Shown here: positions 3,540-57,820 of the stretch, piece after piece | How the letters are laid out: each line of letters opens with the position of its first letter | Numbering within the stretch: position 1 is the first letter of the stretch | Source: Yuukianura sp. NJ FZ-2021 | Lineage: Eukaryota | Assembly (NCBI GenBank): GCA_046563655.1 | Contig: CM102289.1 | Coordinates: 8,804,001-8,868,000 of the forward strand | Direction of reading: 5' to 3' | DNA length: 64,000 nucleotides | Program-made: the position numbers and the translations under genes | Notes under the pieces: model-generated | What the model saw: only the letters and a program-made list of their open reading frames with translations | Database searches by the model: none | What the model was told of the DNA's origin: nothing

Positions 3540-3985
3540 GTTTTTAGCGCGTGGGCTTTCAAAGGAACGTTGACACGAATAACTGTACTGACGTTGTCAA
3601 TGTCAAAAACAAAGCAATCCAAATCGGATTAAAAAACGCATCACGCTGCTGATAAAAAGGTGGACCATTATGCATTGCTTTATTTGTTTAAAACCAGAAT
3701 CGAAAGAACAAAGCAGTTGTTACAGGAGCAGCAGAGAAGCTAAAAACAAAAATGTTTTGAATTGAAAGTCTTTCGCAATTAGTTGCCATGTCGAACTCTC
3801 CGATTTGAATCAATTCAAAACTTTATTGGCAAACAAATTCGACAAAAAAGTTGTGAAAATCGAATCAAATTCTACTTTTATTTTGGTAAACCATTTTTGG
3901 CAATTGGTCAAAAAACTTTGCACAAAATTTTTTTGTTCAGTTATGGACAGACAAAGAGTCTTAGTTTAGTGACATTGAATATAAG

Positions 3986-5974
3986 ATGGTGACAAATGCT
4001 GGACGAAAGCGACGGCTAATCATAATGTTTACGTTAACGTTCGTGTACATGATTGCTGAACTGGTTGTGGGATACTGGACAAATACGACGACGCTTCTGA
4101 CCGATGCGTATCACATGCTCAGTGATGTCATCGCTCTGGTCATTGGCTTCATTTCAATTCACGTAATACAAAAAAAATATTTTTTGAAATATTTTGGTTT
4201 TAATTTAAAGCATGATTGTTAAAAACTAATACCTGCAACATTGAGAAATTCAAAATTCGACAAAATCCTTTTGAATTTTCTGATTTCAAATTTTTTTGAA
4301 TTTCCAGCTTTCGCCCAAAAAGTGGGAAAAAAACACTTTCGGGTGGGCTCGAATGGAAGTTTTAGGTGCACTGGTGAACGCCGTGTTTCTTTTAGCCCTG
4401 TGCTTCACAATTGTGATGGACTCTATTCAGAAACTGATCACCCCGGAGCCCTTGAGGGAACATGTTGTCATCCTCATCGTCGGAGGCGGAGGACTTCTTA
4501 TGAATCTGATTGGCCTGGTTGTTTTTCACGGTTTGATTAATTCAGCAACTTAATTACAAATTTATCCTAAATTTTCAAAATTATCTGCACATCACAGAAC
4601 ACACTTCCAAAGAAAACGATGCGTCCGAACCTGTTCAGCGCGAGAGAACCTCGTTGATTCAAAATCAAAATCGACTTACACGCATCATCGTTCCCCAAAT
4701 TGTTCCATCTACGATTCCCACGGATGACATCAAATCAAGCGCGTCGCCTAAAACGTCTGATGGGTCACCCGTAAAAAAACAGTCTGTGGACGGACCGAAT
4801 TCGGTGAAGACAGATTCCGGCAAACTGGAAAATTCAGACCATTCCGCGCCAACGGTGCAAGTCAACGATGCAAAACCTCCACACATTACTAGAACTTCAA
4901 TAAAGAAGGCCAAGAAGAAGAAAAACGTAAATTGAAATATCAAATCCTCAAATGATCTTAGTTTTTATGTGATTTTTGAATTAGATGAACATGAGATCTG
5001 TTTTTCTGCATTTGTTGGCTGACACTGCAAATTCCGTTGTTGTGATGATCGCTGCGGGAATCTCTTATGCAGTCCACCTGAAAATTGGAGCAGATTACAA
5101 TCAATCTGTAAAATGGAAGTGGGTGGACTACGTTGATCCGGTTATGTCCATCATCATCGTTGCTCTCATTTGCGCTTCAACTTATCCATTGAGTAAGCTC
5201 ATCAAAAAAAAATTAGGCACAACTTTTCAAAAAAAAAAAGTTTCAAAACGATACTCGACTGCTAAATACTTTAGGCAAAACATTTCAACGCTCATTTTGT
5301 TTTTCAGTTCAAGAAACTTCCAATATTTTGTTACAAACTGTTCCCTCACATGTTTCCGTAAGTGTCTTTTTTCAAAATATACGTTTTTGAAAAAAAACAG
5401 GGAAATTTTTTTTTTCAGATGAAAGTCTTAACCGAAGAGTTGTTGGCCGAAGTCAAAGGGATTTCTGGTATTCACGAATTCCATGTTTGGCAACTTGCTG
5501 GAGACAACTTCTATGCTTCCATTCATGTCAAGTGAGCACTCTAGTACAATTTTTGGAGATTTACAGTAACGGATTACCGTAAAGTCTCAATTTTTAACAA
5601 TTTCTGTAGCTCTATAGTGACAGATTACCGTAAAGCCTCAATTTTTTTTGAATTTTTGGAGGTTTACAGTGACAGATTACCGTAAAATAAAAAAAATATG
5701 CGCTAATCCTTGCTGTTTTTGTTTTAGATGTAAAAGTTTAACAGACTACGAACGAATCTCGAGTGAAGTCAAAACGTTTTTCCATCGACGCGGGATTTAC
5801 GAAACTACGATTCAAGCTGAGCTTAAGGGCGATAGTGTGATTCATGGAGTGAGCAGTGACTTCTGTTTGGTCATTCCAGACCCAGATCCAGAAACTCAAG
5901 GAATCCAGATCAATTTGACGCCATCTTTAAAACAACAGGGACCCATAGTAGAGCCAAAATTAAATCAAAAATGA
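3986..5974 (+). CDS. Cation diffusion facilitator, ZnT1/SLC30A1 (ZnT63C)-like zinc exporter, paralog A
   Basis: Exons 3986-4162, 4308-4530, 4598-4926, 4985-5192, 5308-5357, 5419-5531 and 5728-5974 join in frame. CDF motifs: TDAYHMLSD, NTFGWARMEVLGALVNAVFL, NMRSVFLHLLAD, YVDPVMS, IHEFHVWQL. Confidence 0.93.
5560..5685. repeat. Three copies of a ~23-bp motif (TTACAGTGACAGATTACCGTAAA-like) in the last intron of ZnT paralog A
   Basis: Copies start near 5561, 5613 and 5664, a period of about 51 bp. Confidence 0.6.
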
Positions 5975-6309: not shown

Positions 6310-7902
6310 ATGGAGTGGAGATTTAAACTTGGAAAACAGAAGCGTTTGGCCATAATGTTTCTGATGACTGGAAGTTTCATGTTGACTGAGCTTGTGGTAG
6401 GCTACTGCGGAGATTCTTTGACGCTTGTGGCCGATTCGTTCCATATGCTAAACGACGTCGCAGCACTCGTAGTGGCATTTGTGACCTCAAGTTTATCCAA
6501 AAAACCTTGGGCCAAAAGTACTTTTGGATGGGAACGCGCAGACGTGGTGGGAGCCATGGTCAACTGTGTATTCCTTTTGGCCCTGGCTTTCTCCATTTTA
6601 GTAGAGGCAATGAAGCGGTAAAGTTCAAAATTTTAAAAAATTTAACATTTAACACGCTTTTTTTTAAAACATTGTTTTTATACTACTAGATTTGTCCATC
6701 CTGAACCAGTGATTGAACCACGGTGGGTTTTTTCCGTCGGAGTCTGTGGATTAGTCATCAACCTGTTAGGACTTTGCTTGTTCAAAGGTAAGGTATGTAA
6801 ATTTACAATAAGGTAATCTTAATTAGGACTAAAAAGTCAATTATGATAACAGATCATGCGCATAGTCATTCTACCACTACTGCGCAGCTTCCACATAAAC
6901 ATGATCCTGCACAGGTAGCGTCAAGTACACCATCAACTATTGTCATTTCAGCTGAGCCAGTTGTTCCGCAGCATCAGCATTCACAGGTACAAAATTTAAA
7001 TAAACATGGATACACTTTTTTTTTTATATTCAAGTATTTTGAAAATTGGACAGATGAATATGCGAGGTGTTTTTCTGCATGGTATGTTTTATTTTTGAAA
7101 ATTTTAATTTTGAAAGTTTATAAGGCTTCGGTTTATGAAGAAATTCTCGTTTTTAGTTTTAGCAGACACAATGGCATCTATCGCAGTACTAATTTCTGCA
7201 GCATTCGTGTGGGGCACAGAAGACATGCGCAGAGAAGATCCAAATTGCTGGAAGGTCATTGACTACATTGACCCTGCGCTGTCTGTTCTCATTGTCTGTC
7301 TCATATTTGTATCTACGTTGCCACTTTTATACCAAGCAGGGCTCATTTTACTTCAAGCGTTTCCTTCAACTTTAAATGTAACGCAGATCATAAAGTTATA
7401 TTAAAAACTTTGTGCAACTTCAGTTTTTATGAACATTATAACAAAAAACTAATTTTTTGAAAATGTAGATCGATGACATAAAGCGGGAACTTGAAAAAAT
7501 TGAAGGAGTTTCAACAGTAGAAGAACTGCACATTTGGCAGCTTACGGGAACAAAAGTTGTGGCGTCGACACATCTCAAGTAAAAGTCGTAAATCGGATTC
7601 GTAAATTCGTAGTCGTAAATCCGTAAATTTCAAAACAAAAACAAAACTCACATTTTTTTGGTTTCCCAGTTACACTGACCTCAACGAATACAACCGAATA
7701 AAAGACGAAGCCACGAACGTGTTCAGAGCGCATGAAATAAATTTCACCACCATTGAGGGCAACTTGGTCGTAAAAAATGGCGACTCTAACCATGTAAGAG
7801 TGCGATTACGGTATTCTTGACGCAACTTTTTAACAAAGTTTCACCATTTTGAAATAATACTTTTAGGAGTTGTTGCGGACTCAGAAAGTAACCATTGTGT
7901 AA
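6310..7902 (+). CDS. Cation diffusion facilitator, ZnT1/SLC30A1-like zinc exporter, paralog B
   Basis: Exons 6310-6617, 6690-6787, 6853-6986, 7054-7081, 7157-7377, 7469-7578, 7670-7793 and 7867-7902. Motifs: ADSFHMLND, STFGWERADVVGAMVN, His-rich loop DHAHSH...HKH...HQH, NMRGVFLH|VLAD, YIDPALS, VEELHIWQL. The last exon is less certain. Confidence 0.92.
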
Positions 7903-13938: not shown

Positions 13939-14481
13939 TTATCTTCGTCCGTATCCTGACGAAGGAGGTGGTCCATATCCCCCTTGTAAACCTTGTTCTA
14001 CAAAGTTTGCCACCAAAATTCCTTGGTTGACCTTGCCAAGTTGAATGTTGCCACCTTTAGGTGGGCCATACGATGATTGTGGTGGGGCCCCATAAGATGA
14101 TGATGGTGGGGCACCATAAGACGATTGTGGTGGGGCACCGTAGGATGATGATGGTGGGGCACCGTAAGAACTGGAAGCTCCACTGTATCCACCTCCCTGT
14201 TGTTGCTCTTGTTGGTTCAAAATGGCCGTAATTCTGTCCAGAAGAGCTTGGTCAACGATGGCTCCAGGAATTTGGCCTTCGTTGCCCTGGTCTCCCCCAC
14301 CACCATAACCGCCACTGACTGGTGGCTCACAGGTCACTGCTGCCACGATGGCTAAAAGTATAATCTAAAAACCAAAACAGAAAAAAATTAAGCAAATTCT
14401 TCACATCAAGCTCAAAATTTCAGAATTTTGAATTAAATATGTGTTAAAAAAAAGAAATTTTGAACTTACGACTGTACGCAT
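13939..14481 (-). CDS. Secreted Gly/Pro/Tyr-rich YGAPP-repeat structural (cuticle/extracellular matrix-type) protein
   Basis: Exon 1 14481-14470 (MRTV) plus exon 2 14364-13939 gives the signal peptide MRTVIILLAIVAAVTC followed by EPPVSGGYGG. It has four SSYGAPP[S/Q] repeats and no R&R chitin-binding motif. Confidence 0.88.
14063..14172 (-). repeat. 27-bp coding tandem repeat encoding SSYGAPP[S/Q]
   Basis: Visible periodicity of GATGATGGTGGGGCACC-like units on the + strand. Confidence 0.8.
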
Positions 14482-14564
14482 GTTTAAGTCTGTGTTGAAA
14501 TTAGCTTTATTTTGCAAAAATTTAAATTTTGGCACACCAACGGCCAGCGATGTGGGTAATCTTG

Positions 14565-14602
14565 GACTGAACTAGGCTAGGTGTACTGATTCTGCTTTTA
14601 TA
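14565..14602 (-). promoter_or_regulatory. TATA box plus arthropod initiator of the YGAPP gene
   Basis: TATAAAA at 14602-14596 and TCAGTC at 14570-14565, about 85 nt upstream of the ATG. Confidence 0.6.
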
Positions 14603-15606
14603 GAGTACAGTTTTGTCATTGACCAATTTGGACGGACATGCACTTAATTGACTTGTAAGTGGCAACAATTCCCAGGCTTGCGCATGAGCAATCCGCAACA
14701 CTTTTGCTTCACCGATTGACGAATAATTGACAAAACTAAAAAATTACTTCAAATGACAACAACGTTAGTTCTGTAACAATGCGTTGCAAAAACTGTCAAC
14801 ATTTTAAACCGCCATGAAAATCAACTTCAGCCGACAAAAAACTTTGTTCGCAAAAGTTGCTCACGCAGTTTTTAAATGTTGCAAATTGCTTTGCGTATTT
14901 CCTAGTTTCCTATTGGTTAGATATAGCCATAAACTAATTGTACAGCGAGAGTGACAAGTCAAAACATCACAATGTCCATTTCGTGTTTACTTGCAGTTAA
15001 ATAGAATTGGGTTGATGGTCTCAATTGAAGTGAGTTACGAAAAGCAGAATTTAAATCAGGATGTATTTGGAAACAGCAAAAATTTTAACAAAGGGCTTCT
15101 CTAAAGTGCTGTGAAGGATAAAAATGTCTAAAATAATTGAAGTTTCCAAGGGTGTGAAACTAAAAAAATTTCATAAGAATTTACAAGGAGGGAGGAAAAA
15201 GAAGTTAATTGTAAATTGCAAATTGCTCTGTCATCGCCAAAATGGTGCAAAAAGAGAGACGTGAAAGATATAACTAAACCAGAAAATTGTGGGTTAGTTA
15301 CGCTATTCATTAAAATGCAAAAAATAAATTATTGATGAAATGCTGATCGATTTCAACACTCTACTCGTCAAGGCCGCAGTGTTGAAAATTGTGAACAACA
15401 AATTCAGTCAGGACCACACCAAATTGTCACGTCGTCAATTTACGACGTGATGGCTTTCACGTTATCACTACCACCTTCATACAGTATGTCAATATTAATG
15501 AAAACAATAACATGGAAATGGAGAAAATGGGGAGATAATGTTGTTGAAGTGTTGATGTTCAGAGAGAAATTTTGGTAGTTTCTGCGTCGTGTTGCGTTCT
15601 TGCGTT

Positions 15607-17158: not shown

Positions 17159-17549
17159 ATGGACTTGGAACTGGCAGGAGCCATGGGCCATCCGGTGAGT
17201 TTGAAAATCTTTCAAAAATTTAAAGTGTTTAAACGATTGCGTGTGTTTCTAGATATGGCCTGCTGGATTGTTCCGAAAGAAGAAACAGGTTATGAAGGTC
17301 ACAGAGAATACGGCTCCGGAATCTACGCATGTTCAAATGACCTCGTCGTCTTCCGAATCCCAGTCACCAATTGCAAATGCTCCAGCGATTAACCAGCAGC
17401 GTCAATCAGAAAGTGACCAAGGACAAGGAACATACAATGGCACTGAGCACAGACTGTCCGTTAGTTCAGAAGGTCAGCAGTACTTGGCCCAAAATGGTGT
17501 GAAACGTCGTAGTTCCCGGGACTCCTTCGCCATTTTGGCATTCTCTTAA
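17159..17549 (+). CDS. Small (~110 aa) Ser/Gln-rich orphan protein, tandem copy B
   Basis: Exon 1 17159-17194 (MDLELAGAMGHP) and exon 2 17253-17549 (IWPAGLFRKKK...RRSSRDSFAILAFS). Indels relative to copy A preserve the frame. Confidence 0.8.
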
Positions 17550-17894
17550 AAGCGCGTGACAAAAAGTTAACTTTGATACCGAAACTTGTATAATGGCCAC
17601 AAAATTTACTTTCTAAATCCATTTCTTTTCTATTTAATTTATTATTTAACCTTTGACCTTTGACCTCTGACCACTGACTTTTAGAATTATTAAAGTCAAT
17701 TCAAAAATAATTTAATATTTGTTGATGCCCATATCTGTATTTGTTGAAAGCGGGCTGTGCGAGTGTGTTTTTGTGAAACCCGTCAGCTGGTTGTGTTTAT
17801 GTTTTCCAGTTTTTCTTGCGCACATTGAATTTATAGAGTAATCGATTAATCAAAGTGTTTTTAATTAACGAAACAGTCAACTAGTGAGTGCTAA

Positions 17895-18996
17895 ATGACG
17901 ATGATTAGGCTGACCAGATGCCCCAGTATACAAAAACGTTTAGTTGGATTCCTTCGACGTAGTGATACGCTAGTTTCGGCAAGGGAAAACCACCATTGTC
18001 GTCGGCAGTTCGTCTACCCGGGTAATTACTGTATTGGATGTGACAGCGAATCTCAAGCAGTTAGACAGTATTCTACAAGCAGGAGAGAGAACTTTGTGCG
18101 TGTCAAGTACGGTACCGGGATTAAAGTGTTAGGTCGATACGAATCATTGACGATTCGGTACCAGGACGTGACGCAGGTCACTAATTACTTTCGATTGTTT
18201 CATATGGGGAGATGTAAACGACTGACCGGTGAAAAGGGCTGACTCCCCCTAACATTAAATTAGGTTAGGTTTTGTAGGGGTTGGGTGGTCGGGTGGTCAA
18301 GCTAAAATCTATTTTTAGCCCACTAGTCAGCTTTTTTCTGTAGGTTAGGTTAGGAAAGTCAGCCCTTTTCACCGGTCAGTCGTTTACATGTCCCCTTTCA
18401 TATCGACCAAACCTTGCCCAATTCACAGCGAGTTCCTGTCCAACCTCCCACTCTCAATACCAGCGAAATCAGGTAACTTCAGTACGGCTCCATTCCTTCT
18501 CGGTAGTGAATTGATAATCCAATCTTTAATTGAGAATCTCTAGGTATTTTGCTTTTTCTTTTTAGTGCATCTGAATACGAGTACGCAGTAGAAGAAACCC
18601 TCGATTCCCTTACGGCTTACTTCGACGAGCTACTGGAATCTTCTTCCATAAAAGATGGAGATGTGATGTACAGTGTAAGTACTGTCGACATACACAAAGT
18701 ATCAAACTTACTTTAGTTCTAGTATGATCAATGTTTACATTGGACAGAGTGGAGTGTTAACTGTCAAGCTCGGGAAGTTTGGAACCTATGTCATAAACAA
18801 GCAAACTCCAAACAGACAAATCTGGTTTTCAAGTCCAACGAGCGGCCCCAAACGCTACGATTTTATAAAAGGAACGTGGATTTATAAGCATGATGGAGTA
18901 TCTTTACATAGTGTACTAAATACCGAAATTCCCAAAATCCTGGATGTGGCCAACATAGACTTCCGAAAATGTCGATTCGGAAAACCTTCTGAATAA
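17895..18996 (+). CDS. FXN: Frataxin, mitochondrial Fe-S cluster assembly factor
   Basis: Exons 17895-18176, 18429-18472, 18566-18674 and 18748-18996 join in frame. Arg-rich presequence, then [19 protein letters not shown] and the signature [38 protein letters not shown]. Confidence 0.96.
18206..18395. mobile_element. 190-bp MITE with 39-bp TIRs, an 8-bp TSD and internal TTAGG motifs (frataxin intron 1)
   Basis: TIR GGGGAGATGTAAACGACTGACCGGTGAAAAGGGCTGACT (18206-18244) matches 18357-18395 with 1 mismatch. TSD TTTCATAT at 18198-18205 and 18396-18403. Confidence 0.93.
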
Positions 18997-19027
18997 AGAT
19001 AAGTCCGAATTCCACAGTGCAGGCAAA

Positions 19028-22000
19028 ATGCTTGGCTCCAAAGTGAATAATTTGTTACTGGGTGAAAAGAACTTGGTTGATTTCGTGGACAAGAACTTAG
19101 GACAAGAGATGGAGAGACTACTTGGGAACGAATTGGAATTTGAGCAAGTTTGTCTTCATCTTCAAGGCGGATCTTCGTTCCTCGATTATCCTAAACTAAT
19201 TTCTCATGATTTTTGTGATATAACTTCAGCATTTGATATTTATATTCAAGCTTTTACTAGATCAGCTACATCCAAGATTCCTCAGAGATTCGGCACTGGA
19301 ATTATACACGATCAAGCGGATACCAAGAATGAACGAATGGCCAAAATGCCATTTAAAGGAAACGAACTCAGCGAACGACAATTTGTCAATGCCTTTTTTC
19401 AAGCATCGGTCAAAATTCGTACCCATTTGATCGATTGTGTACAAGAAGCGACTGTTTCTGGACGAGTGGATGTCATGTATTTGCTTACTTCAAACATCGC
19501 GATGATTCGGAATTACATTTGGTTGTTTCAACAAATCTTCACTCTGGAGTCGAAGTAAATTGCACTAAAATCTTGAATAATCAACATTTAACTACAATTT
19601 AACTTAACTTTTTTTGTGATTAGGGCTGCAGATAAGCTCAAAACAGAATACAGTGAATATGGCGAATTTCTGGAAAGCGTCAGCGATAGACTCATTCAGT
19701 GTCAGATGAATCTTCTTACTACTTACGTCATCCACGACGAGACGTCGCAGAGCTGGACGTCAACTCAACCGTACTATGAAGGCCTGCGCAGTTCGCCTAC
19801 AATTCAAATGTGGGCCTACTTTTTGAAAGGTTAGTTAATTCAAAAATTATGTTTTCAAAAAGTTGGAAGGAAGCTTACAGTTTGTTTGAAAAGGAACGAA
19901 GCAAGAGATGTGGAGGATCATGCCTCCTCGATTGGCGCAACGCATTCTTACCATGTTATTGAACAACTCTATGGGAATATTAGTCGGCAGATATTCACAG
20001 GTGACGAAATTTTGAAAAGTACTGATGTGCATAATTTTTTGAAAATGATGTTTTGATGTTTAGATTGACCCGTCAGAAGAAACGAAAATGCAGTTCTGTG
20101 TTGACATTTTGAACATTTTGGAAACCGCTTACGAACTTCTTTTTAGCATGTGCACTGATCGGGAGGAATTTTGCGGCGACATTGACCTGTCGACAAACAC
20201 TACAATTAGTTCGATCCACCTCAAGTGTGAGTGCTTGACCATAACATTGGTGCTAATTGGAGCTCCAATTGAAGTCCTTTATAAGGTAACGTTGACAAAA
20301 CGTAATGAAAACGATATTTCGGTGCGCGTTATACGCAAGTGCGAGGTATACGGCGATAAATAGGGCAAATGTTTTATTTCTAGACATTCAGGAGAGGCAT
20401 TTCATGCTGCCCTCTATTGGAGAAACAAGATATCAACGAGGAAATGCTGCAACCAATGTGGATGCAAATTTTGGCCACACTTTGCCCCAAGTACCATCCA
20501 AATCTGGATACAGAAAAATTTAAACTAGCCGTCAACTTCCGACTACTCTGTGGTCAACCGACTGTCAACTGGACATTGTTGTACAAGGTACGATGAACTA
20601 AAAATTTTTTAATATGTTGCCGCATTTGGCTACAGCTCCATTGCCAAAACGCCACAGGGAACGTCATAGCTCGATTGGTAGAGAGCATTTTCCGGATTGG
20701 GGACTTATGGGTTCTAGTCCCACTAGGTCCATTAATTTTTTACACTGTTATTCTTTGTCTCTCAAACCCATGTGATCTCTGAGCCTCCCAATATGATAAT
20801 TGTACTTTGAGTCTGAGTTACATTAATATTGAATGCTGTTTTTAGGTAATTGTTCTGAACAACTTCTACATCAGCAGTTTGATCTTCCAATTGTTCCCGA
20901 CAGTGGCCATTGCACCTTCGAATTTTCTTCTTGAAGCAAGTGGATTCAAAACATGCTTCAAGGCTGGATGCTTCAACTCCAAGTGCCATTCTCTGGACAA
21001 ATCCATTTCAAAGTACCACGTCCCTTCATCTCTGTTTTATATCCTGGCTCATACAATTCCCAGAAGAAAACTCGCTGCACTTTATCATGAGTTGCTGCCA
21101 CAAATTGACGACTGGACCGTTCTGGATCGAACCCAAATCTGGACTTGTACAAAACGTCCAATTTGGTTTCAAAGTCTGATTGATCTGCTACTTCCAATAT
21201 TGAAAACTTGCGTGCAAGAACTATGTTTCAGCTTAATTAGAAGAAGAGGGGATGAAGACACGACACAATTCGTTATCGGACTACTCAACTCCTGTAGCGA
21301 CATTCTATCAATCATACCTAGAGCCTTTTTTCTAATTTGTGAAGAAATGGATGACTTGATTCCACGGTCGATCTACCCCGTTCGAAATTCAGTTCCAGTT
21401 CACTTTTTAGTGACGACGTTGTACCAGCTTCTCAACTTGGGTCCAGGAATTGTCTCTTCGGTAGAACTGATTTTGAATAGCATTCCAGAACTGAGTGATA
21501 CTTATCCGAAGACGTCAGCATCTTCAGAGGAAGATGTCAAAGGCCTTTTGCCTATTTTGTCTTCTACTGCCGAGCGGCTCTGTCATTTGGATGATTGCAT
21601 ATTTGATCAAACGATACACCGCTTGACTTCACAAATTGAATCAATGTGAGTTTTTTTTTCTCAATTTTTATCAAAATCAGTGATTCATGGTATATTTTTT
21701 TCAGGATGAGACAAACACAGGCTGAATCTGAGAAGAAAGCTGTAGAAAAATCTGAATTCCTAGTGACAACGGACACAGCGACGTTGAAGATCAATTTCCT
21801 TTTGCAAGAAGATGAAGGTCAAATGTCTCTGTGGATTTTGTATTGGTTTCTTATAACAAACTCGGATGCTATCCAAGAGGCCATTCAGCGCTGTGGCACG
21901 ACGAATCAAGTTGGAAATGAGACCTCGGCAGCTACAACAGTCACGACTTCAGCGAATCGAACACAACCTCGAGCACATTCGTCAAAGGTGGCTCCAGCCC

Positions 22001-22414
22001 CACCAACCACGAGCCACCAAACCGAGAACAAAGTGATCCTCCCCACCGCGCCGACCATAAAAACGTTCTACAGGAGCCCAAGTACTTTACAAAGTTTTTT
22101 GTACGTGAATCAACGAAGAACGTTTGATGAGGTACGAAAGTCGTTTTTTAGTCACAATTTCTGTTTTGAAATGTGTTTTGGATGTTTAGGTGCTTTGGAA
22201 CTTCGATAAAGACTTGGACTGGGTTTCTACAATTCGGCAGTGCAAGATGGGACTCCACAAGCACTTGATCCTTCGTCAACTTCAGCGCAGGTCTGAATTT
22301 AATATGGGAAGCGAAATCGTTTCGGAAACGTCTGACGAGGTTTCGAGTGAGAAGGCTCTGCTGCTCCAGAAGATGGTTACAGAAATTACTGCGCTCTTGT
22401 CCGTCAGAAGTTGA
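19028..22414 (+). CDS. KIAA0825 / DUF4495-like uncharacterised conserved protein
   Basis: Exons ~19028-19554, 19624-19829, 19894-20000, 20064-20286, 20384-20587, 20846-21645, 21705-22131 and 22190-22414. The segment HDETSQSWTSTQPYYEGLRSSPTIQMWAYFLKGTKQEMWRIMPPRLAQRIL resembles KIAA0825 from recall; this was not searched. Confidence 0.75.
20658..20731 (+). pseudogene. tRNA-derived element (SINE head or tRNA pseudogene) in an intron of the KIAA0825-like gene
   Basis: A-box TAGCTCGATTGGTAGA (20667-20682), T-arm TGGGTTCTAGTCCCA with a B-box-like GGTTCTAGTCC (20710-20720), ending GGTCCA followed by a T-run. The anticodon arm is degenerate. Confidence 0.55.
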
Positions 22415-23987
22415 ATCAAGAATACTGGCAGATTTCGTTAGCATCTTTACGAATTTTGATGTCTTACAATGTTTTCCATGTTCTTGAAAGAATTTTTTGG
22501 ATTTTTAGTTAACAGGATATAAGCCCGTACCACGCAGACGCTTGCAGGATCTTTGAGACTGATGGATTCGTGGTTGTGGTCGTGTCATGTCAGTGTCCAC
22601 GATGACTTACTTCCTGAGGTTCACATGACATGCTTGACCTTCGATCTTCTGTTTAGACTCTGCATCTGATCATTCACATTTAATGATTGCGAACTTCGAA
22701 CTTTACTATGAGTACTAGTAGTAGGAGTTTGTTTTGACAGTAGTGAGAACGAGAAGCAGTAAAAATACAAAAAGAATGACGTTTGTGCTCGTTACAGTGC
22801 TATTCTGCGAAAAACCAGACGCTTAAAATTGTTAACATTGTAAAATCGTCAAACTCCGGGGAAAATCCTCTGTCAATTCAAGTTACGGAAAAGGAGGGTT
22901 GACGAAAACTATTAAATTGTATCATTTTTCAGTTTTCATTGTGTCAATTCCTGCAGTTAAAATTGACAGAATTCTTGTAATTTTTTGGCGCTAGGTTTTT
23001 GGTGAACTTCACTGTATGCGAGTATGATGTCAGAGTGAATTTCGTGGTAATAAATTTATTTTAAGCTGTTGCACTTGCAGGCTTTTTCTGTGATCACAAG
23101 AACAATACCAACCTGCCGATTTGCAAAACCAAATGACCTGTGCTGGTATTGCAAATTGCGAAATGAACGAAATAGCCTGGCGAATTCAAACTGGTTAAAA
23201 TACGAAATTTTTAAGTTACTAACCAAAGGATTATTAATTTCAATTTTTTTTCAGCTATTGAATTCAAGTTTTTTGGGATCTAAGAACAAAATAAAACGCC
23301 AAAACCACTGGTTTTGCAATTGTATTGCAGTATGGAGTTATTCGTCGCAGCGAAAATCAAACTCGAATGTAATGTTTTATCAAAACTAATGTCAAACTGT
23401 ATCCGTGATACTAAAAGTATATGTGATTTTGTTATTTTATAAGTACGGAATTTTCTGCAAAGCTTATAAAAATAGTTTTTCACCCAACTTTTTTAGTTTT
23501 TGAAAATATGTACATATTATAATTATAACTGGCGTTTCTACTCTATTAATACAACGGTAGTAATAAGTAGATCAGGAGATAACAAAAGTAAAAACGTAGA
23601 TTACTTGGACGTATAATTAATTATCTCAAAGTAAAAAAAACGAAATTCAAATTATTCATAGTTTCGTATTTTGTCGTTTTGCACTTTGTGCTAATCAGAC
23701 GAATCGGAACTGCCATTGCGGTAATTGAGACTACAAAACTCCGTCTCCTTTTCCTCCTGTGTCCTCCCCCTGTTATTTGTGAAATTGAATTGAAATCCAA
23801 CCATACGATGGGATAAGCACTACTGCTGCTACTTGCCTCACATCGACACACAACGACTTGCAGTCAGTTCAGTCTTCTACCTTCCAATTCCCTTTCCATT
23901 TTAGCAGGAGGTGAGGAATTAACCATACTCAATTCCTCCATTAGTTATTAAGTTTAAGTTAACTTTAACATTAGTGTAGTGTGAGAA

Positions 23988-44900: not shown

Positions 44901-46843
44901 TTGAATTTTTGAAATTTTTGAAATACACGGTTTGACATTTTTTTTTTTGAAATTTCAGATGGAATGTCTGAAAAGGACAAGAAACTGCTGATGCCGCTTC
45001 TTGCCCAAGTGACTGCCTTAAAAAACAATGAGTACATTTTGAATCGTGGGATTTGGAACGATATTCAGGAAGACTGGCCTTTCTATTCTGAGCATGAGAA
45101 ACAGATATTGAAGCGGTAAGAGTGAGACTCAGTTTGTTAATTGACTAACTCTAGTTAGTTAATTAGTGAACGAACTTAGTTTCTCATGGTTTTTCTTGTG
45201 TATGATCATACACAGACGGAAACCTCAAAACCTGACTCCGCCTGGAAGTGACTGTAGTGTAGGAAGTGGTGGGAGTTTGAGTAGTTTGTCTCCAAGAAGT
45301 TCCGTCTCTAATCATTCTGGACAGTCTCCGCCTGGATACTCGGCCAAGTCTCTTGTTGGACAAGGTGGAGAGCCATTCCACTTGCCTGGAACGAAGAGGC
45401 CGCCTGGACATGACTTTGACCTGGAAGATAACGCCAAACGACCGCGAATCTCACATTTTAAAAGACCAAACTCCTCTTCCACGACTAACCAACAGAATCA
45501 ATCCAATATTCCAACTGCCAATTCTCGGAGTGACAAAGAGTATCCGTACCATTCGCCTTCTTCCGGAATACAAAACCGGAATGTGCCGAACGGTCATGCG
45601 CCGCGCCTTCCAAATGAGAGGTTAAGTCCGCCCGGAAGTTCGTCGCAAAGTTATAACCGAAATGGTCCACCGGAGATTGGTTTGTCACCGCAGTCCTACG
45701 AGTATCCGTCGTATCCATGGCAAGGAACGAAACCCATGGACCATTCGGGCTATGGTCCAGGAAAAGTGCCTGACGATGAGACGGATTCAATTGACAGTGG
45801 AAATGGTGGCAGTAGTTGCAGTAGTGGGAGTGGGAAGTCAGACTACAGTAATGGTAGCTTGGCAGGAAACTATTCTGGAATGGGCAAATCTACACCGGAT
45901 CCTGGCCAACACTCTCCGTTGACAAATGGTTACCTCAATGGAACTGCCACGGTTTCATCATCTTCAGCTAAACCAGAACCGGAGATTTTTGAAAATAGTG
46001 TGCAGGATGAGTTTGTACTTCCGGAAAAGTCGCGTAGTGTGGAAGAGCCTAAAATTTCCAAGGAAAAAGAGGTCAAAGGGCGTGGGAAAGAGAGGTCACG
46101 AGAAAAAGAGGCCAAGAAGGAAGCCAAGTTGGAAAAAAGTCGGGAGCGGAATGGAGGTGACGACAGCAGTAACAAGCAGTCACCAAAGTACTTGATGTGA
46201 GTTGAAAAACTGATAATTTTGTTTTCCAAGTATCAAGTATAGAAGTGACAAGTACTGGATGGATTACGGTAATCGGGAATTTTTATGTTTTTTTTTTTTT
46301 TTTGTGGTCGCAGGACATTTCTTCCAATTCGTACTCCAGAACAACGGGATCGGTACAAAGCTGAATTCACAGCTGATCACAAGGAATACATGCGGTTACA
46401 CTCTGTGATAGACAAAGTTTCCAAATTATTTGCTCATCTTGACGAAAGACTGCGACAAGCGGAACATGGAAGCCAGGAGTATAATGTAAGCACAGAAAAA
46501 ACTAAAAATATTTGCTGCAAGTGTGATTGGAACCCATGTCTCTTCAATCCGGGAAGTCCTCTAACCCTTGAGCTATGGGATTACTGGCGCTAAACGCCAC
46601 AAACCTTTTCAATTTTTGCATAAAACCTAACCTAATTCACCAATTTTTGTTTTGTTTTAGATGTTGAAGGAAAGGATTATCCAGGAATATGCTTCCAGCA
46701 AAGCCAATCCGGAGTATGAGTCTGCTAGACAAAAATTTCAGTACTTGCATGGGAAGTTGTCTCACATCAAACGGTTGGTGTTGGAATACGACTCTTTACA
46801 TTCCAACTCAGACTATGAGTCACAAGGAGAAGACAATGAATGA
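23988..46843 (+). CDS. ELL: RNA polymerase II elongation factor ELL (Drosophila Su(Tpl))
   Basis: Exons 23988-24170, 25784-25834, 42318-42436, 43885-44001, 44072-44440, 44816-44886, 44959-45115, 45216-46196, 46314-46485 and 46661-46843 join in frame. Motifs KSVIFVKLTDSALKAI, GPQGSFECIQQ and RRPLRDRLIHLLALKNYKKPEL, plus a C-terminal occludin/ELL domain (EQRDRYKAEF...YLHGKLSHIKRLVLEYD). Confidence 0.95.
33939..34099. mobile_element. hAT-like MITE, copy 1 (CAAGGTTC...GAACCTTG)
   Basis: 8-bp terminal inverted repeat plus a ~30-bp internal inverted repeat (TCCTACACCAGGTTGTCCAATAACTC / GAGTTATTGGACAACCTGTTGCAGGA). Flanks CTTAAAAT/GTTGAAAT match 6 of 8. An inverted homolog lies at 39510-39710. Confidence 0.75.
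35111..35230. mobile_element. TA-flanked CCGTA...TACGG MITE (Tc1/mariner-pogo/Tc2 type)
   Basis: TA|CCGTAAAATCCCAAA ... TTTGGAAATTTACGG|TA. Confidence 0.7.
37234..37327. mobile_element. TA-flanked CCGTA...TACGG MITE
   Basis: TA|CCGTAGGTTTCCAAATA ... TATTTGGAAATTTACGG|TA. Confidence 0.7.
39359..39854. mobile_element. TA-flanked CCGTA...TACGG MITE carrying a nested insertion
   Basis: TA|CCGTAAATTTCCAAATAGCACA ... TGTGCTATTTGGGACCGTACGG|TA, with internal GGTGTGCTA repeats on both sides of the insert. Confidence 0.75.
39510..39710. mobile_element. hAT-like MITE, copy 2 (inverted relative to copy 1, nested)
   Basis: CAAGGTTCCTTGACAACCGAATTG ... GTTTACGAACCTCG. Flanks ATAGTATT/ATATTATT match 7 of 8. 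Confidence 0.78.
41170..41352. repeat. Degenerate ~30-bp minisatellite (AATATGGTCGG core)
   Basis: ATGGTCGG recurs about 7 times, mostly ~30 bp apart, with TTTTGAAA spacers. Confidence 0.75.
42227..42277. repeat. Interrupted (GAT)n microsatellite just upstream of ELL exon 3
   Basis: TGATGATGATTTTGATGATGATGAAGGTGATGATTTTGATGATGATGATGA. Confidence 0.8.
44481..44728. mobile_element. TA-flanked MITE with 14-bp TIRs and an internal ~31-bp tandem array (ELL intron 5)
   Basis: TA|AGGGTGTAAATCCG ... CGGATTTACACCCT|TA. The interior is tandem AAATCCGGATTTTGACGAAAAATCCGGATTT, built from the palindrome AAATCCGGATTT. Confidence 0.88.

Positions 46844-53032: not shown

Positions 53033-57820
<4,788 letters not shown>

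What the first reader, a model, noticed from the sequence alone, without database searches (positions are those of the whole stretch)
17895..22414. Frataxin and the KIAA0825-like gene are 31 bp apart on the same strand: candidate dicistronic or shared-exon unit
Seen: the frataxin stop ends at 18996 and the next long ORF starts at ATG 19028, leaving little room for a 3' UTR plus an independent promoter. The two frames differ, so simple stop readthrough is excluded. An AATAAA overlaps the frataxin stop (18992-18997). A possible acceptor TTCCACAG|T at 19017/19018 has the same phase as the acceptor of frataxin exon 3, so frataxin exon 2 (ending AG at 18472) could splice in frame to give ...SEIS-AGK-MLGSK. 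Inference: the downstream gene may be (a) the second cistron of one transcript, (b) an alternative splice form sharing the mitochondrial-presequence exons, or (c) driven by a promoter inside frataxin. Option (b) would suggest a mitochondrial location for a conserved protein of unknown function.
Basis: partly seen in the sequence, partly recalled or inferred. Interest (0 to 1): 0.72.

Follow-up and report, generated by a model that had tools for sequence, protein, structure and literature searches.

The report
Conserved springtail frataxin–KIAA0825 tandem gene pair
Frataxin and a KIAA0825-like gene lie head to tail only 31 bases apart in this springtail-like genome, and distant springtails keep the same tight arrangement, but the two genes encode separate proteins rather than a fused mitochondrial one.

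Summary
Frataxin ends at TAA 18994-18996, overlapped by AATAAA at 18992-18997. A clean 8-exon, 905-aa DUF4495/KIAA0825-like gene starts at ATG 19028, 31 nt downstream on the same strand.

New here: the head-to-tail pair is conserved.
- All 4 of 4 related metagenome loci carry frataxin's last exon directly upstream, with spacers of 69-166 nt.
- Allacma fusca and Orchesella cincta have the two proteins under consecutive accessions on one contig; O. dallaii has both on one contig.

The shared-presequence splice form (option b) is not supported.
- All 9 of 9 homologues start at the same Met.
- Three of 4 relatives have an in-frame stop 0-5 codons upstream of that Met.
- The 19017/19018 acceptor is the weakest of 10 compared, and its phase match is expected by chance.

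Dicistronic mRNA versus an own start site could not be decided, because no RNA data could be reached. A canonical poly(A) signal at the frataxin stop in 3 of 5 loci, 12 AUGs in the frataxin ORF and initiator-like CAGT motifs favour separate, overlapping transcription units (about 0.5). Uniformly short, ATG-poor spacers keep a dicistronic unit alive (about 0.3).

In passing: a 190-bp MITE interrupts frataxin's first coding exon.

The parts
17895..18205 (+). Frataxin first coding exon, part before the MITE. The N-terminus looks like a mitochondrial presequence: 9 K+R and 2 D+E in the first 40 aa.
   Evidence: ORF; residue composition; continuity with 18404-18472 once the element is removed in silico.
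18206..18395 (.). 190-bp MITE with 39-nt terminal inverted repeats (97% complementary), flanked by an 8-bp duplication TTTCATAT (18198-18205 and 18396-18403). It is inserted in frataxin coding sequence.
   Evidence: With the element retained the ORF stops after ...[14 protein letters not shown]. Without it a 245-aa ORF reads ...NYFRLFHIDQT..., matching the FHIDQT motif of L001, Orchesella and Allacma.
18404..18472 (+). Frataxin first coding exon, part after the MITE. It ends in a phase-2 donor, AG|gtaact.
   Evidence: L001, L002 and L004 have the same phase-2 AG| donor.
18566..18674 (+).
18748..18996 (+). Frataxin last exon, including the TAA stop.
   Evidence: PF01491, E 9.1e-26; 83% amino-acid identity to L001.
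18992..18997 (+). AATAAA poly(A) signal overlapping the frataxin stop codon.
   Evidence: A canonical signal lies near the frataxin stop in 3 of 5 loci, against a shuffle mean of 0.59 (P about 0.013).
18997..19027 (+). 31-nt spacer with no ATG.
19028..19554 (+). KIAA0825-like exon 1, with the conserved start MLGSK.
19624..19829 (+). KIAA0825-like exon 2.
   Evidence: PF14906, E 1.5e-15; gene model.
19894..20000 (+). KIAA0825-like exon 3.
   Evidence: Model; collinear with L001.
20064..20285 (+). KIAA0825-like exon 4.
   Evidence: PF14906, E 1.2e-14.
20384..20587 (+). KIAA0825-like exon 5.
20846..21645 (+). KIAA0825-like exon 6.
   Evidence: tblastn to L001 at 62% and to L002 at 42%.
21705..22131 (+). 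KIAA0825-like exon 7.
22190..22414 (+). KIAA0825-like exon 8, including the TGA stop.

Best explanation
These are two separate genes forming an old, conserved head-to-tail pair in springtails. Frataxin mRNA is cleaved and polyadenylated in the tiny spacer, using the AATAAA that overlaps its stop codon. The KIAA0825-like protein is made from its own conserved Met (19028) and carries no frataxin presequence. The downstream gene most likely has its own capped mRNA. That mRNA would start at an initiator-like site in the spacer or the last few dozen bases of frataxin's last exon, so the two transcription units overlap. The downstream core promoter would then sit on frataxin's 3' end. With no neutral DNA between the genes, rearrangements cannot separate them, and that preserves the linkage. 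Shown here: the gene identities, the separate conserved start, the conserved linkage and short spacers, and the enrichment of poly(A) signals. Inferred, not shown: where the downstream transcript starts.
For: Separate proteins:
- 9 of 9 homologues start at the homologous Met: the window, L001-L004, P0001, P0002, P0123 and P0131.
- In-frame stops lie 0, 1 and 5 codons upstream of that Met in L003, L004 and L002.
- Of the representative-library hits, the three that reach the first residues align 1 to 1 or 3 to 3, and a fourth aligns 9 to 14.
- The first 40 aa of the KIAA0825-like protein are acidic (8 D+E, 4 K+R), unlike a presequence.

Frataxin has its own 3' end: a canonical AATAAA or ATTAAA lies within -12 to +40 nt of the stop in 3 of 5 loci, against a shuffle mean of 0.59 (P about 0.013).

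A dicistronic mRNA would translate poorly: the frataxin ORF holds 12 ATGs, which excludes leaky scanning. Reinitiation after an ORF of about 245 codons is generally inefficient (established knowledge, recalled).

An own start site is plausible: CAGT, recalled as the core of the arthropod initiator TCAGT, lies on the sense strand in 4 of 5 spacers. There are 6 copies, against 1.43 in shuffles and about 2.2 from the window-wide rate. Three published springtail annotations call two separate gene models.
Against: - In the window the spacer is only 31 nt, so any promoter must lie within frataxin coding sequence.
- No conserved non-coding block, and no excess conservation at synonymous sites, was found in the spacer, the last intron or the last exon.
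- All five measured spacers are short (31-166 nt) although flanking intergenic DNA runs to kilobases.
- The spacers are ATG-poor: 3 observed against 9.1 expected, P about 0.014. Both this and the short spacers also fit co-transcription.
- The CAGT enrichment is post hoc. It is inflated because the AG dinucleotide is itself enriched, 41 against 23.75.
- No transcript data were available.
Confidence: 0.5

Rival explanations
1. Conserved dicistronic unit. Part of frataxin transcription reads through the weakly placed poly(A) signal. The KIAA0825-like ORF is then translated from the second position of that mRNA by reinitiation or internal entry.
For: - Same strand and order, with spacers of 31-166 nt, in 5 of 5 sequenced junctions.
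- The gene models are adjacent in Allacma fusca and Orchesella cincta and share a contig in O. dallaii. These species span two springtail orders.
- Spacers are ATG-poor, and the 3 ATGs present open only 1-7-codon ORFs that close before the main ATG.
- No recognisable conserved promoter block was found.
- L002 and L004 lack a canonical poly(A) signal in the tested interval.
Against: - A canonical poly(A) signal lies at or next to the frataxin stop in 3 of 5 loci.
- The upstream ORF holds 12 AUGs.
- The junction shows no structure signal (z -0.5) and no Rfam family.
- Short spacers alone make separation by rearrangement unlikely, so conserved linkage does not require co-transcription.
Confidence: 0.28
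2. Shared non-coding leader. Both genes use the frataxin promoter. A donor in the 5' leader, just upstream of the frataxin ATG, splices to an acceptor just upstream of the KIAA0825-like ATG and skips all frataxin coding exons. This resembles the ChAT/VAChT locus (recalled).
For: - A consensus donor-like A|GTGAGTGCT lies at 17883-17892, ending 2 nt before the frataxin ATG.
- The identical 10-mer lies about 7 nt beyond a helicase-exon ORF boundary at 54545-54554 on the minus strand, where it looks like a splice donor (my reading; splicing not shown).
- L001 has GTGAGA 2 nt upstream of its frataxin ATG.
- GTGAG occurs only 0.61 times per kb in the window.
- AG-ending, acceptor-like sites exist upstream of the ATG in all 5 spacers.
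- In-frame stops do not matter for a non-coding leader.
Against: - A strong donor upstream of frataxin's own ATG would endanger frataxin expression.
- The motif may instead mark the transcription start.
- L002 has no GTGAG there, and the 5' regions do not align.
- The window acceptor is the weakest of the 10 compared.
- This reading is entirely post hoc.
Confidence: 0.08
3. Operon resolved by spliced-leader trans-splicing. The acceptor upstream of the ATG receives a capped leader, as in nematode or tunicate operons.
For: The architecture matches: a poly(A) signal of the upstream gene, then an AG acceptor-like site and the downstream ATG within 31-166 nt. AG is enriched in the spacers, 41 against 23.75.
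Against: Spliced-leader trans-splicing is not known in hexapods (recalled). Searches for 'springtail' plus 'spliced leader' found 0 papers. 'Folsomia' plus 'trans-splicing' found 1 paper, whose title and abstract opening in the listing concern maternal senescence. No other such pair is visible in the 64-kb window. No SL RNA family was hit in Rfam.
Confidence: 0.04
4. One reading: an alternative mRNA joins the frataxin presequence exon (donor after 18472) to 19018. This would give a mitochondrially targeted KIAA0825-like protein.
For: The join is in frame in the window. An equivalent in-phase AG|T exists in L001 and L002.
Against: - It is impossible in L003 and L004, where a stop lies 0-1 codon upstream and there is no in-phase AG.
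- The in-phase match is expected by chance, since 1 of 4 AGs fits.
- The site has the lowest pyrimidine content of the 10 acceptors compared: Y 9/20 and T 4/20.
- All 9 homologues start at the Met.
- No PF01491+PF14906 protein appears among the 120 listed frataxin hits or the DUF4495 hits. A fusion with exon 1 alone would lack PF01491, so this last point is weak.
Confidence: 0.04

Closest known systems
Insect dicistronic genes such as Drosophila stoned A/B (recalled, not looked up)
   Same: Two non-overlapping ORFs lie on one strand with a spacer of tens of bases, and the arrangement is conserved among related species.
   Different: No transcript carrying both ORFs has been shown. A canonical poly(A) signal sits between the ORFs in 3 of 5 genomes. 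The two products have no known functional link.
Spliced-leader operons of nematodes and tunicates (recalled)
   Same: The upstream gene's poly(A) signal is followed within about 30-170 nt by an AG acceptor-like site and the downstream start codon.
   Different: Trans-splicing is unknown in hexapods. It could not be tested here, and this is the only such pair in the window.
Cholinergic locus ChAT/VAChT, with a shared leader exon and one gene nested in the other's first intron (recalled)
   Same: Same-strand linkage is conserved over long evolutionary time and could reflect one promoter with alternative splicing.
   Different: No shared exon is demonstrated. The donor-like motif upstream of the frataxin ATG is seen in only 2 of 3 genomes with that region.
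Ordinary overlapping tandem transcription units (3' end of one gene overlapping the promoter of the next)
   Same: The upstream gene has a poly(A) signal at its stop, there is an initiator-like motif in the spacer, and the two proteins are separate and conserved.
   Different: The spacer is far shorter than other intergenic distances in the same window. The arrangement has persisted across springtail orders.

Membership tests
Frataxin (Pfam PF01491) | Match to the frataxin/CyaY domain above the curated cut-off | tested here: met
   Last exon: 90.5 bits against a cut-off of 21.3, E 9.1e-26; 60-83% identity to springtail and metagenome frataxins.
Frataxin (Pfam PF01491) | Intact reading frame from a presequence-like N-terminus to the stop | tested here: inconclusive
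   A 190-bp MITE interrupts the first coding exon and brings a stop if retained. In-frame GT..AG pairs that would remove it exist but are unverified.
KIAA0825 / DUF4495 (Pfam PF14906) | Match to DUF4495 above the curated cut-off | tested here: met
   Exon 2: 57.5 bits. Exon 4: 54.6 bits. The cut-off is 25. A profile of the two closest homologues (P0001 Orchesella dallaii, P0002 unnamed) hits a mammalian 'KIAA0825 homolog' at E 2.4e-38.
Dicistronic gene | Two ORFs on one strand separated by a short untranslated spacer, conserved in relatives | tested here: met
   Spacers of 31, 69, 134, 166 and 126 nt in 5 of 5 junctions; adjacent gene models in named springtails.
Dicistronic gene | One mature mRNA carries both ORFs | not testable with these tools
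Dicistronic gene | No functional poly(A) site between the ORFs | tested here: inconclusive
   A canonical signal is present in 3 of 5 loci and absent from the tested interval in L002 and L004. Whether the signal is used is unknown.
Spliced-leader operon | SL RNA and trans-splicing exist in the taxon | not testable with these tools
   No genome or RNA data were available. Literature searches found no report for springtails. No Rfam hit in the window.
   Present in the window, L001 and L002. Impossible in L003 and L004. The phase match is at chance level and the acceptor is weak.

The most novel reading that the evidence does not exclude
The frataxin and KIAA0825-like pair is an ancient operon-like unit of springtails. 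The downstream gene would have no promoter of its own and would be expressed from frataxin transcription. That could be as a true dicistronic mRNA or after processing (a shared leader or trans-splicing). Expression of a conserved protein of unknown function would then have been coupled to the iron-sulfur cluster gene since before the springtail orders split.
Probability: 0.3. Interest if true: 0.6.

Novelty: new member of a known kind. Interest (0 to 1): 0.36.

Why it matters
Same-strand gene pairs that stay within 31-166 nt across orders of an ancient hexapod class are rare. They are natural test cases for how animals express closely packed genes. If the downstream gene depends on frataxin transcription, this would be a conserved polycistronic unit in a group where none has been described. 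It would also give a first regulatory clue for KIAA0825, a protein of unclear function linked to human polydactyly (titles and abstract openings in the listing). If the gene has its own start site, this is simply an extreme but ordinary case of overlapping transcription units. No paper in the searched library mentions frataxin together with KIAA0825.

Tried and rejected
- RNA evidence: the look-up of sequencing runs listed no RNA holder for 17500-22700, so read laying could not be used.
- The window's own genome is not held.
Whether it carries a frataxin 3' end is unknown.
- A scan of genome contigs with the exon-1 alignment found no relative.
- Earlier findings of this scan: nothing by place, by words or by sequence.
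- Search for a conserved promoter or IRES-like block: no convincing non-coding conservation. Compared were the spacer (L003 against L004, window against L001), the last frataxin intron and the frataxin 5' region. Synonymous sites of the last exon show no excess conservation.
- RNA structure at the junction: z -0.51, with 61 of 200 shuffles folding at least as well. No Rfam family in the whole window.
- Stop-codon readthrough is rejected for the window: the frames differ and a second stop follows. In L001 the two ORFs happen to be in the same frame with 23 open codons after TGA. This is not shared by the other 4 loci, so I treat it as chance.
- Fusion proteins: none with both PF01491 and PF14906 among the 120 listed of 1,621 frataxin hits, or among the 2 and 4 DUF4495 hits.
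- Literature: 'frataxin'+'KIAA0825' gave 0 papers. 'frataxin'+'dicistronic' gave 3, none relevant by title or abstract opening in the listing. The Collembola/polycistronic/dicistronic/bicistronic search returned 1,549 papers holding at least 2 of the 4 terms; among the 10 listed, the only Collembola paper is on a mitochondrial genome. 'Collembola'+'microsynteny' gave 10, none on this pair by title.
- Coordinate slips (stops in the requested frame) were corrected.
Full report
**Observation**

- The frataxin stop TAA is at 18994-18996, and AATAAA at 18992-18997 overlaps it.
- The next ORF starts at ATG 19028, leaving a 31-nt spacer (18997-19027).
- An AG at 19016-19017 is followed by T at 19018.
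- The upstream exon ends AATCAG|gtaact after 18472.
- The two frames differ by one base, and the frataxin frame meets a second TAA at 19000-19002.
- Joining 18472 to 19018 reads ...TSEIS-AGK-MLGSK in frame.

**Gene models**

The last frataxin exon (18748-18996) matches PF01491 at E 9.1e-26.

For the downstream gene I built an 8-exon model: 19028-19554, 19624-19829, 19894-20000, 20064-20285, 20384-20587, 20846-21645, 21705-22131 and 22190-22414.
- Every intron is GT-AG, and the model gives an uninterrupted 905-aa ORF.
- Exons 2 and 4 match PF14906/DUF4495 at E 1.5e-15 and 1.2e-14. The other five exons tested matched no family; exon 3 was not submitted.
- A profile of the two closest homologues (P0001 Orchesella dallaii, P0002 unnamed) hits a mammalian 'KIAA0825 homolog' at E 2.4e-38.

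**Organism**

The nearest named relatives of both proteins are springtails: Orchesella dallaii, O. cincta and Allacma fusca. Exon 1 of the KIAA0825-like protein is 54-56% identical to theirs. The window is therefore from a springtail-like hexapod that has no protein of its own in the searched collection.

**Start codon**

All nine available homologues begin at the homologous Met.
- Window: MLGSK.
- L001: MFGAK. L002: MLGVQ. L003 and L004: MSAFK.
- O. dallaii P0001 and O. cincta P0131: MLGSK.
- An unnamed transcript-like ORF, P0002, and Allacma P0123: MLGAK.

In-frame stops lie 0 codons (L003), 1 codon (L004) and 5 codons (L002) upstream of that Met. Only the window and L001 are open for 23 codons.

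The exhaustive representative search found 6 hits. The three that reach the first residues align 1 to 1, 3 to 3 and 3 to 3, and a fourth aligns 9 to 14. One of them is the gene call of L002 itself.

The first 40 residues are acidic, with 8 D+E and 4 K+R. The frataxin N-terminus has 9 K+R and 2 D+E.

**Conserved linkage (new here)**

A scan of metagenome contigs with an exon-1 alignment returned 4 loci that encode a relative. In 4 of 4 loci, frataxin's last exon lies directly upstream on the same strand.

Distance from the frataxin stop to the KIAA0825-like ATG:

| Locus | Spacer (nt) |
|---|---|
| Window | 31 |
| L001 | 69 |
| L002 | 134 |
| L003 | 166 |
| L004 | 126 |

These genomes are far apart: exon-1 identity is 49-68% and whole-protein tblastn identity is 35-48%.

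In the named species:
- Allacma fusca: CAG7815086 (frataxin) and CAG7815085 (KIAA0825-like) are consecutive accessions on one 14,323-nt contig.
- Orchesella cincta: ODM93096 and ODM93097 are consecutive on one 58,053-nt contig.
- O. dallaii: CAL8098799 and CAL8098796 share a 2,559,721-nt contig.

Allacma belongs to Symphypleona and Orchesella to Entomobryomorpha. No genome examined contradicts the linkage.

The surroundings are not compact.
- Other Pfam-recognisable genes in the window are kilobases apart. They are two cation-efflux genes, an EST1-like fragment, ELL and a DEAH helicase.
- The nearest block shared with L001 ends about 2.7 kb upstream of frataxin, and none lies within 3 kb downstream.
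- This gene map uses only ORFs of 70 aa or more plus Pfam, so it can miss genes.

**Spacer features**

- Poly(A) signals. A canonical AATAAA or ATTAAA lies within -12 to +40 nt of the frataxin stop in 3 of 5 loci (window, L001, L003). The shuffle mean is 0.59 loci, P about 0.013.
- ATG depletion. The 526 nt of spacer hold 3 ATGs against 9.12 +/- 2.80 in shuffles, P about 0.014. CAT occurs 6 times. All three ATGs open ORFs of 1-7 codons that close before the main ATG.
- Initiator-like motif. CAGT, which I recall as the core of the arthropod initiator, occurs 6 times, in 4 of 5 spacers. That compares with 1.43 in mononucleotide shuffles (P 0.0036) and about 2.2 from the window-wide rate of 4.16 per kb. 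The complement ACTG occurs 2 times against 1.38. AG is itself enriched (41 against 23.75), so the shuffle P is overstated and the test is post hoc.
- No conservation. No non-coding block is conserved in the spacer, the last intron or the 5' region. Synonymous sites of the last exon are not unusually conserved.
- No RNA signal. The junction has no fold signal (z -0.51). No Rfam family is hit anywhere in the window.

**The three options**

Option (b), a coding fusion with the presequence exon, is not supported as a conserved feature.
- It is impossible in L003 and L004.
- All homologues start at the Met.
- In the window, 1 of 4 spacer AGs has the required phase. Chance would give at least one such AG about 80% of the time (my arithmetic).
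- The site has the poorest tract of the 10 acceptors compared: Y 9/20 and T 4/20, against 10-17 and 7-15 for the other nine.
- An in-phase AG|T does exist in L001 and L002 as well, so a minor isoform in some species is not excluded.

Options (a) and (c) cannot be separated without RNA.
- For separate mRNAs: the poly(A) signals; the 12 AUGs in the frataxin ORF, which exclude leaky scanning; the generally poor reinitiation after long ORFs (recalled); and the initiator-like motifs.
- For co-transcription: the uniformly short, ATG-poor spacers, and the lack of room for a promoter outside frataxin coding sequence in the window.
- Conserved linkage does not discriminate, because a spacer of about 100 nt offers almost no target for a rearrangement breakpoint.

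My estimates are: own start site about 0.5, dicistronic about 0.28, shared non-coding leader about 0.08, trans-spliced operon about 0.04, and coding fusion about 0.04.

**A post hoc lead**

A|GTGAGTGCT lies at 17883-17892, ending 2 nt before the frataxin ATG. The identical 10-mer lies about 7 nt beyond a helicase-exon ORF boundary at 54545-54554 on the minus strand, where it looks like a splice donor (splicing not shown). It also occurs in L001's spacer at 4197-4206. L001 has GTGAGA 2 nt before its frataxin ATG. This could be a leader donor, a start-site motif or chance.

**MITE in frataxin**

In L001, L002 and the named springtails the first coding exon is continuous through a conserved (F)HIDQT motif. 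In the window a 190-bp element sits inside it.
- The element spans 18206-18395 and has 39-nt inverted ends that are 97% complementary.
- It is flanked by an 8-bp duplication, TTTCATAT.
- If retained, it brings a stop. Leaving out the element and one copy of the duplication gives a 245-aa ORF, close to the 242 aa of O. dallaii.
- In-frame GT..AG pairs that could remove it exist, for example 18196/18380, but none is verified.

**Novelty and limits**

No paper in the searched library holds both 'frataxin' and 'KIAA0825'. Searches on springtails with spliced leader, polycistronic terms or microsynteny found nothing on this pair. For those papers, and for the KIAA0825 papers, I saw only the search listings.

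The arrangement is a new, well-conserved example of a known kind of thing: a very tightly linked tandem pair that may be dicistronic. The expression mechanism is unshown. Human FXN and KIAA0825 lie on different chromosomes (recalled, not checked here).

Noticed in passing
window 18198-18403: A 190-bp MITE is inserted in the first coding exon of frataxin. It has 39-nt inverted ends (97% complementary) and an 8-bp TTTCATAT duplication. Retained, it truncates the ORF; left out, a 245-aa frataxin is restored. There is no other copy of the arm in the window.
   Followed up: partly
L001 4164-4238: In this relative the frataxin TGA stop and the KIAA0825-like ATG are in the same frame, with 23 open codons between them. 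Stop-codon readthrough would fuse the two proteins there. The other four loci do not share this.
   Followed up: partly
window 17883-17892 (+), 54545-54554 (-); L001 4197-4206: The same 10-mer, AGTGAGTGCT, which looks like a splice donor, occurs in three places: ending 2 nt before the frataxin ATG, about 7 nt beyond a helicase-exon ORF boundary, and in L001's spacer. Two copies were found in the window against 0.05 expected.
   Followed up: partly
window 3965-5419 and 6310-7401 (+): Two tandem cation-efflux (PF01545, ZnT-like) genes lie on the plus strand, each split over several exons.
   Followed up: no
window 53036-56785 (-): A DEAH-box helicase gene with S1, Helicase_C, HA2 and OB_NTP_bind domains (DHX8/Prp22-like).
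   Followed up: no
window 46273-46590 (+): An exon with the occludin/ELL homology domain (PF07303). A 345-aa open frame with no family match lies just upstream at 45163-46197.
   Followed up: no
window 13993-15217; L001 186-1331: The upstream neighbour is conserved with L001, and its best-matching frame is on the minus strand. It has no Pfam family. Synteny with L001 therefore extends beyond the gene pair.
   Followed up: no
P0002 (protein from a 2,722-nt assembled contig): A 790-aa intron-free KIAA0825-like ORF ends in what looks like a retained last intron. It appears to be a transcript assembly from a relative and could show whether frataxin sequence precedes the ATG. It could not be fetched.
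   Followed up: no
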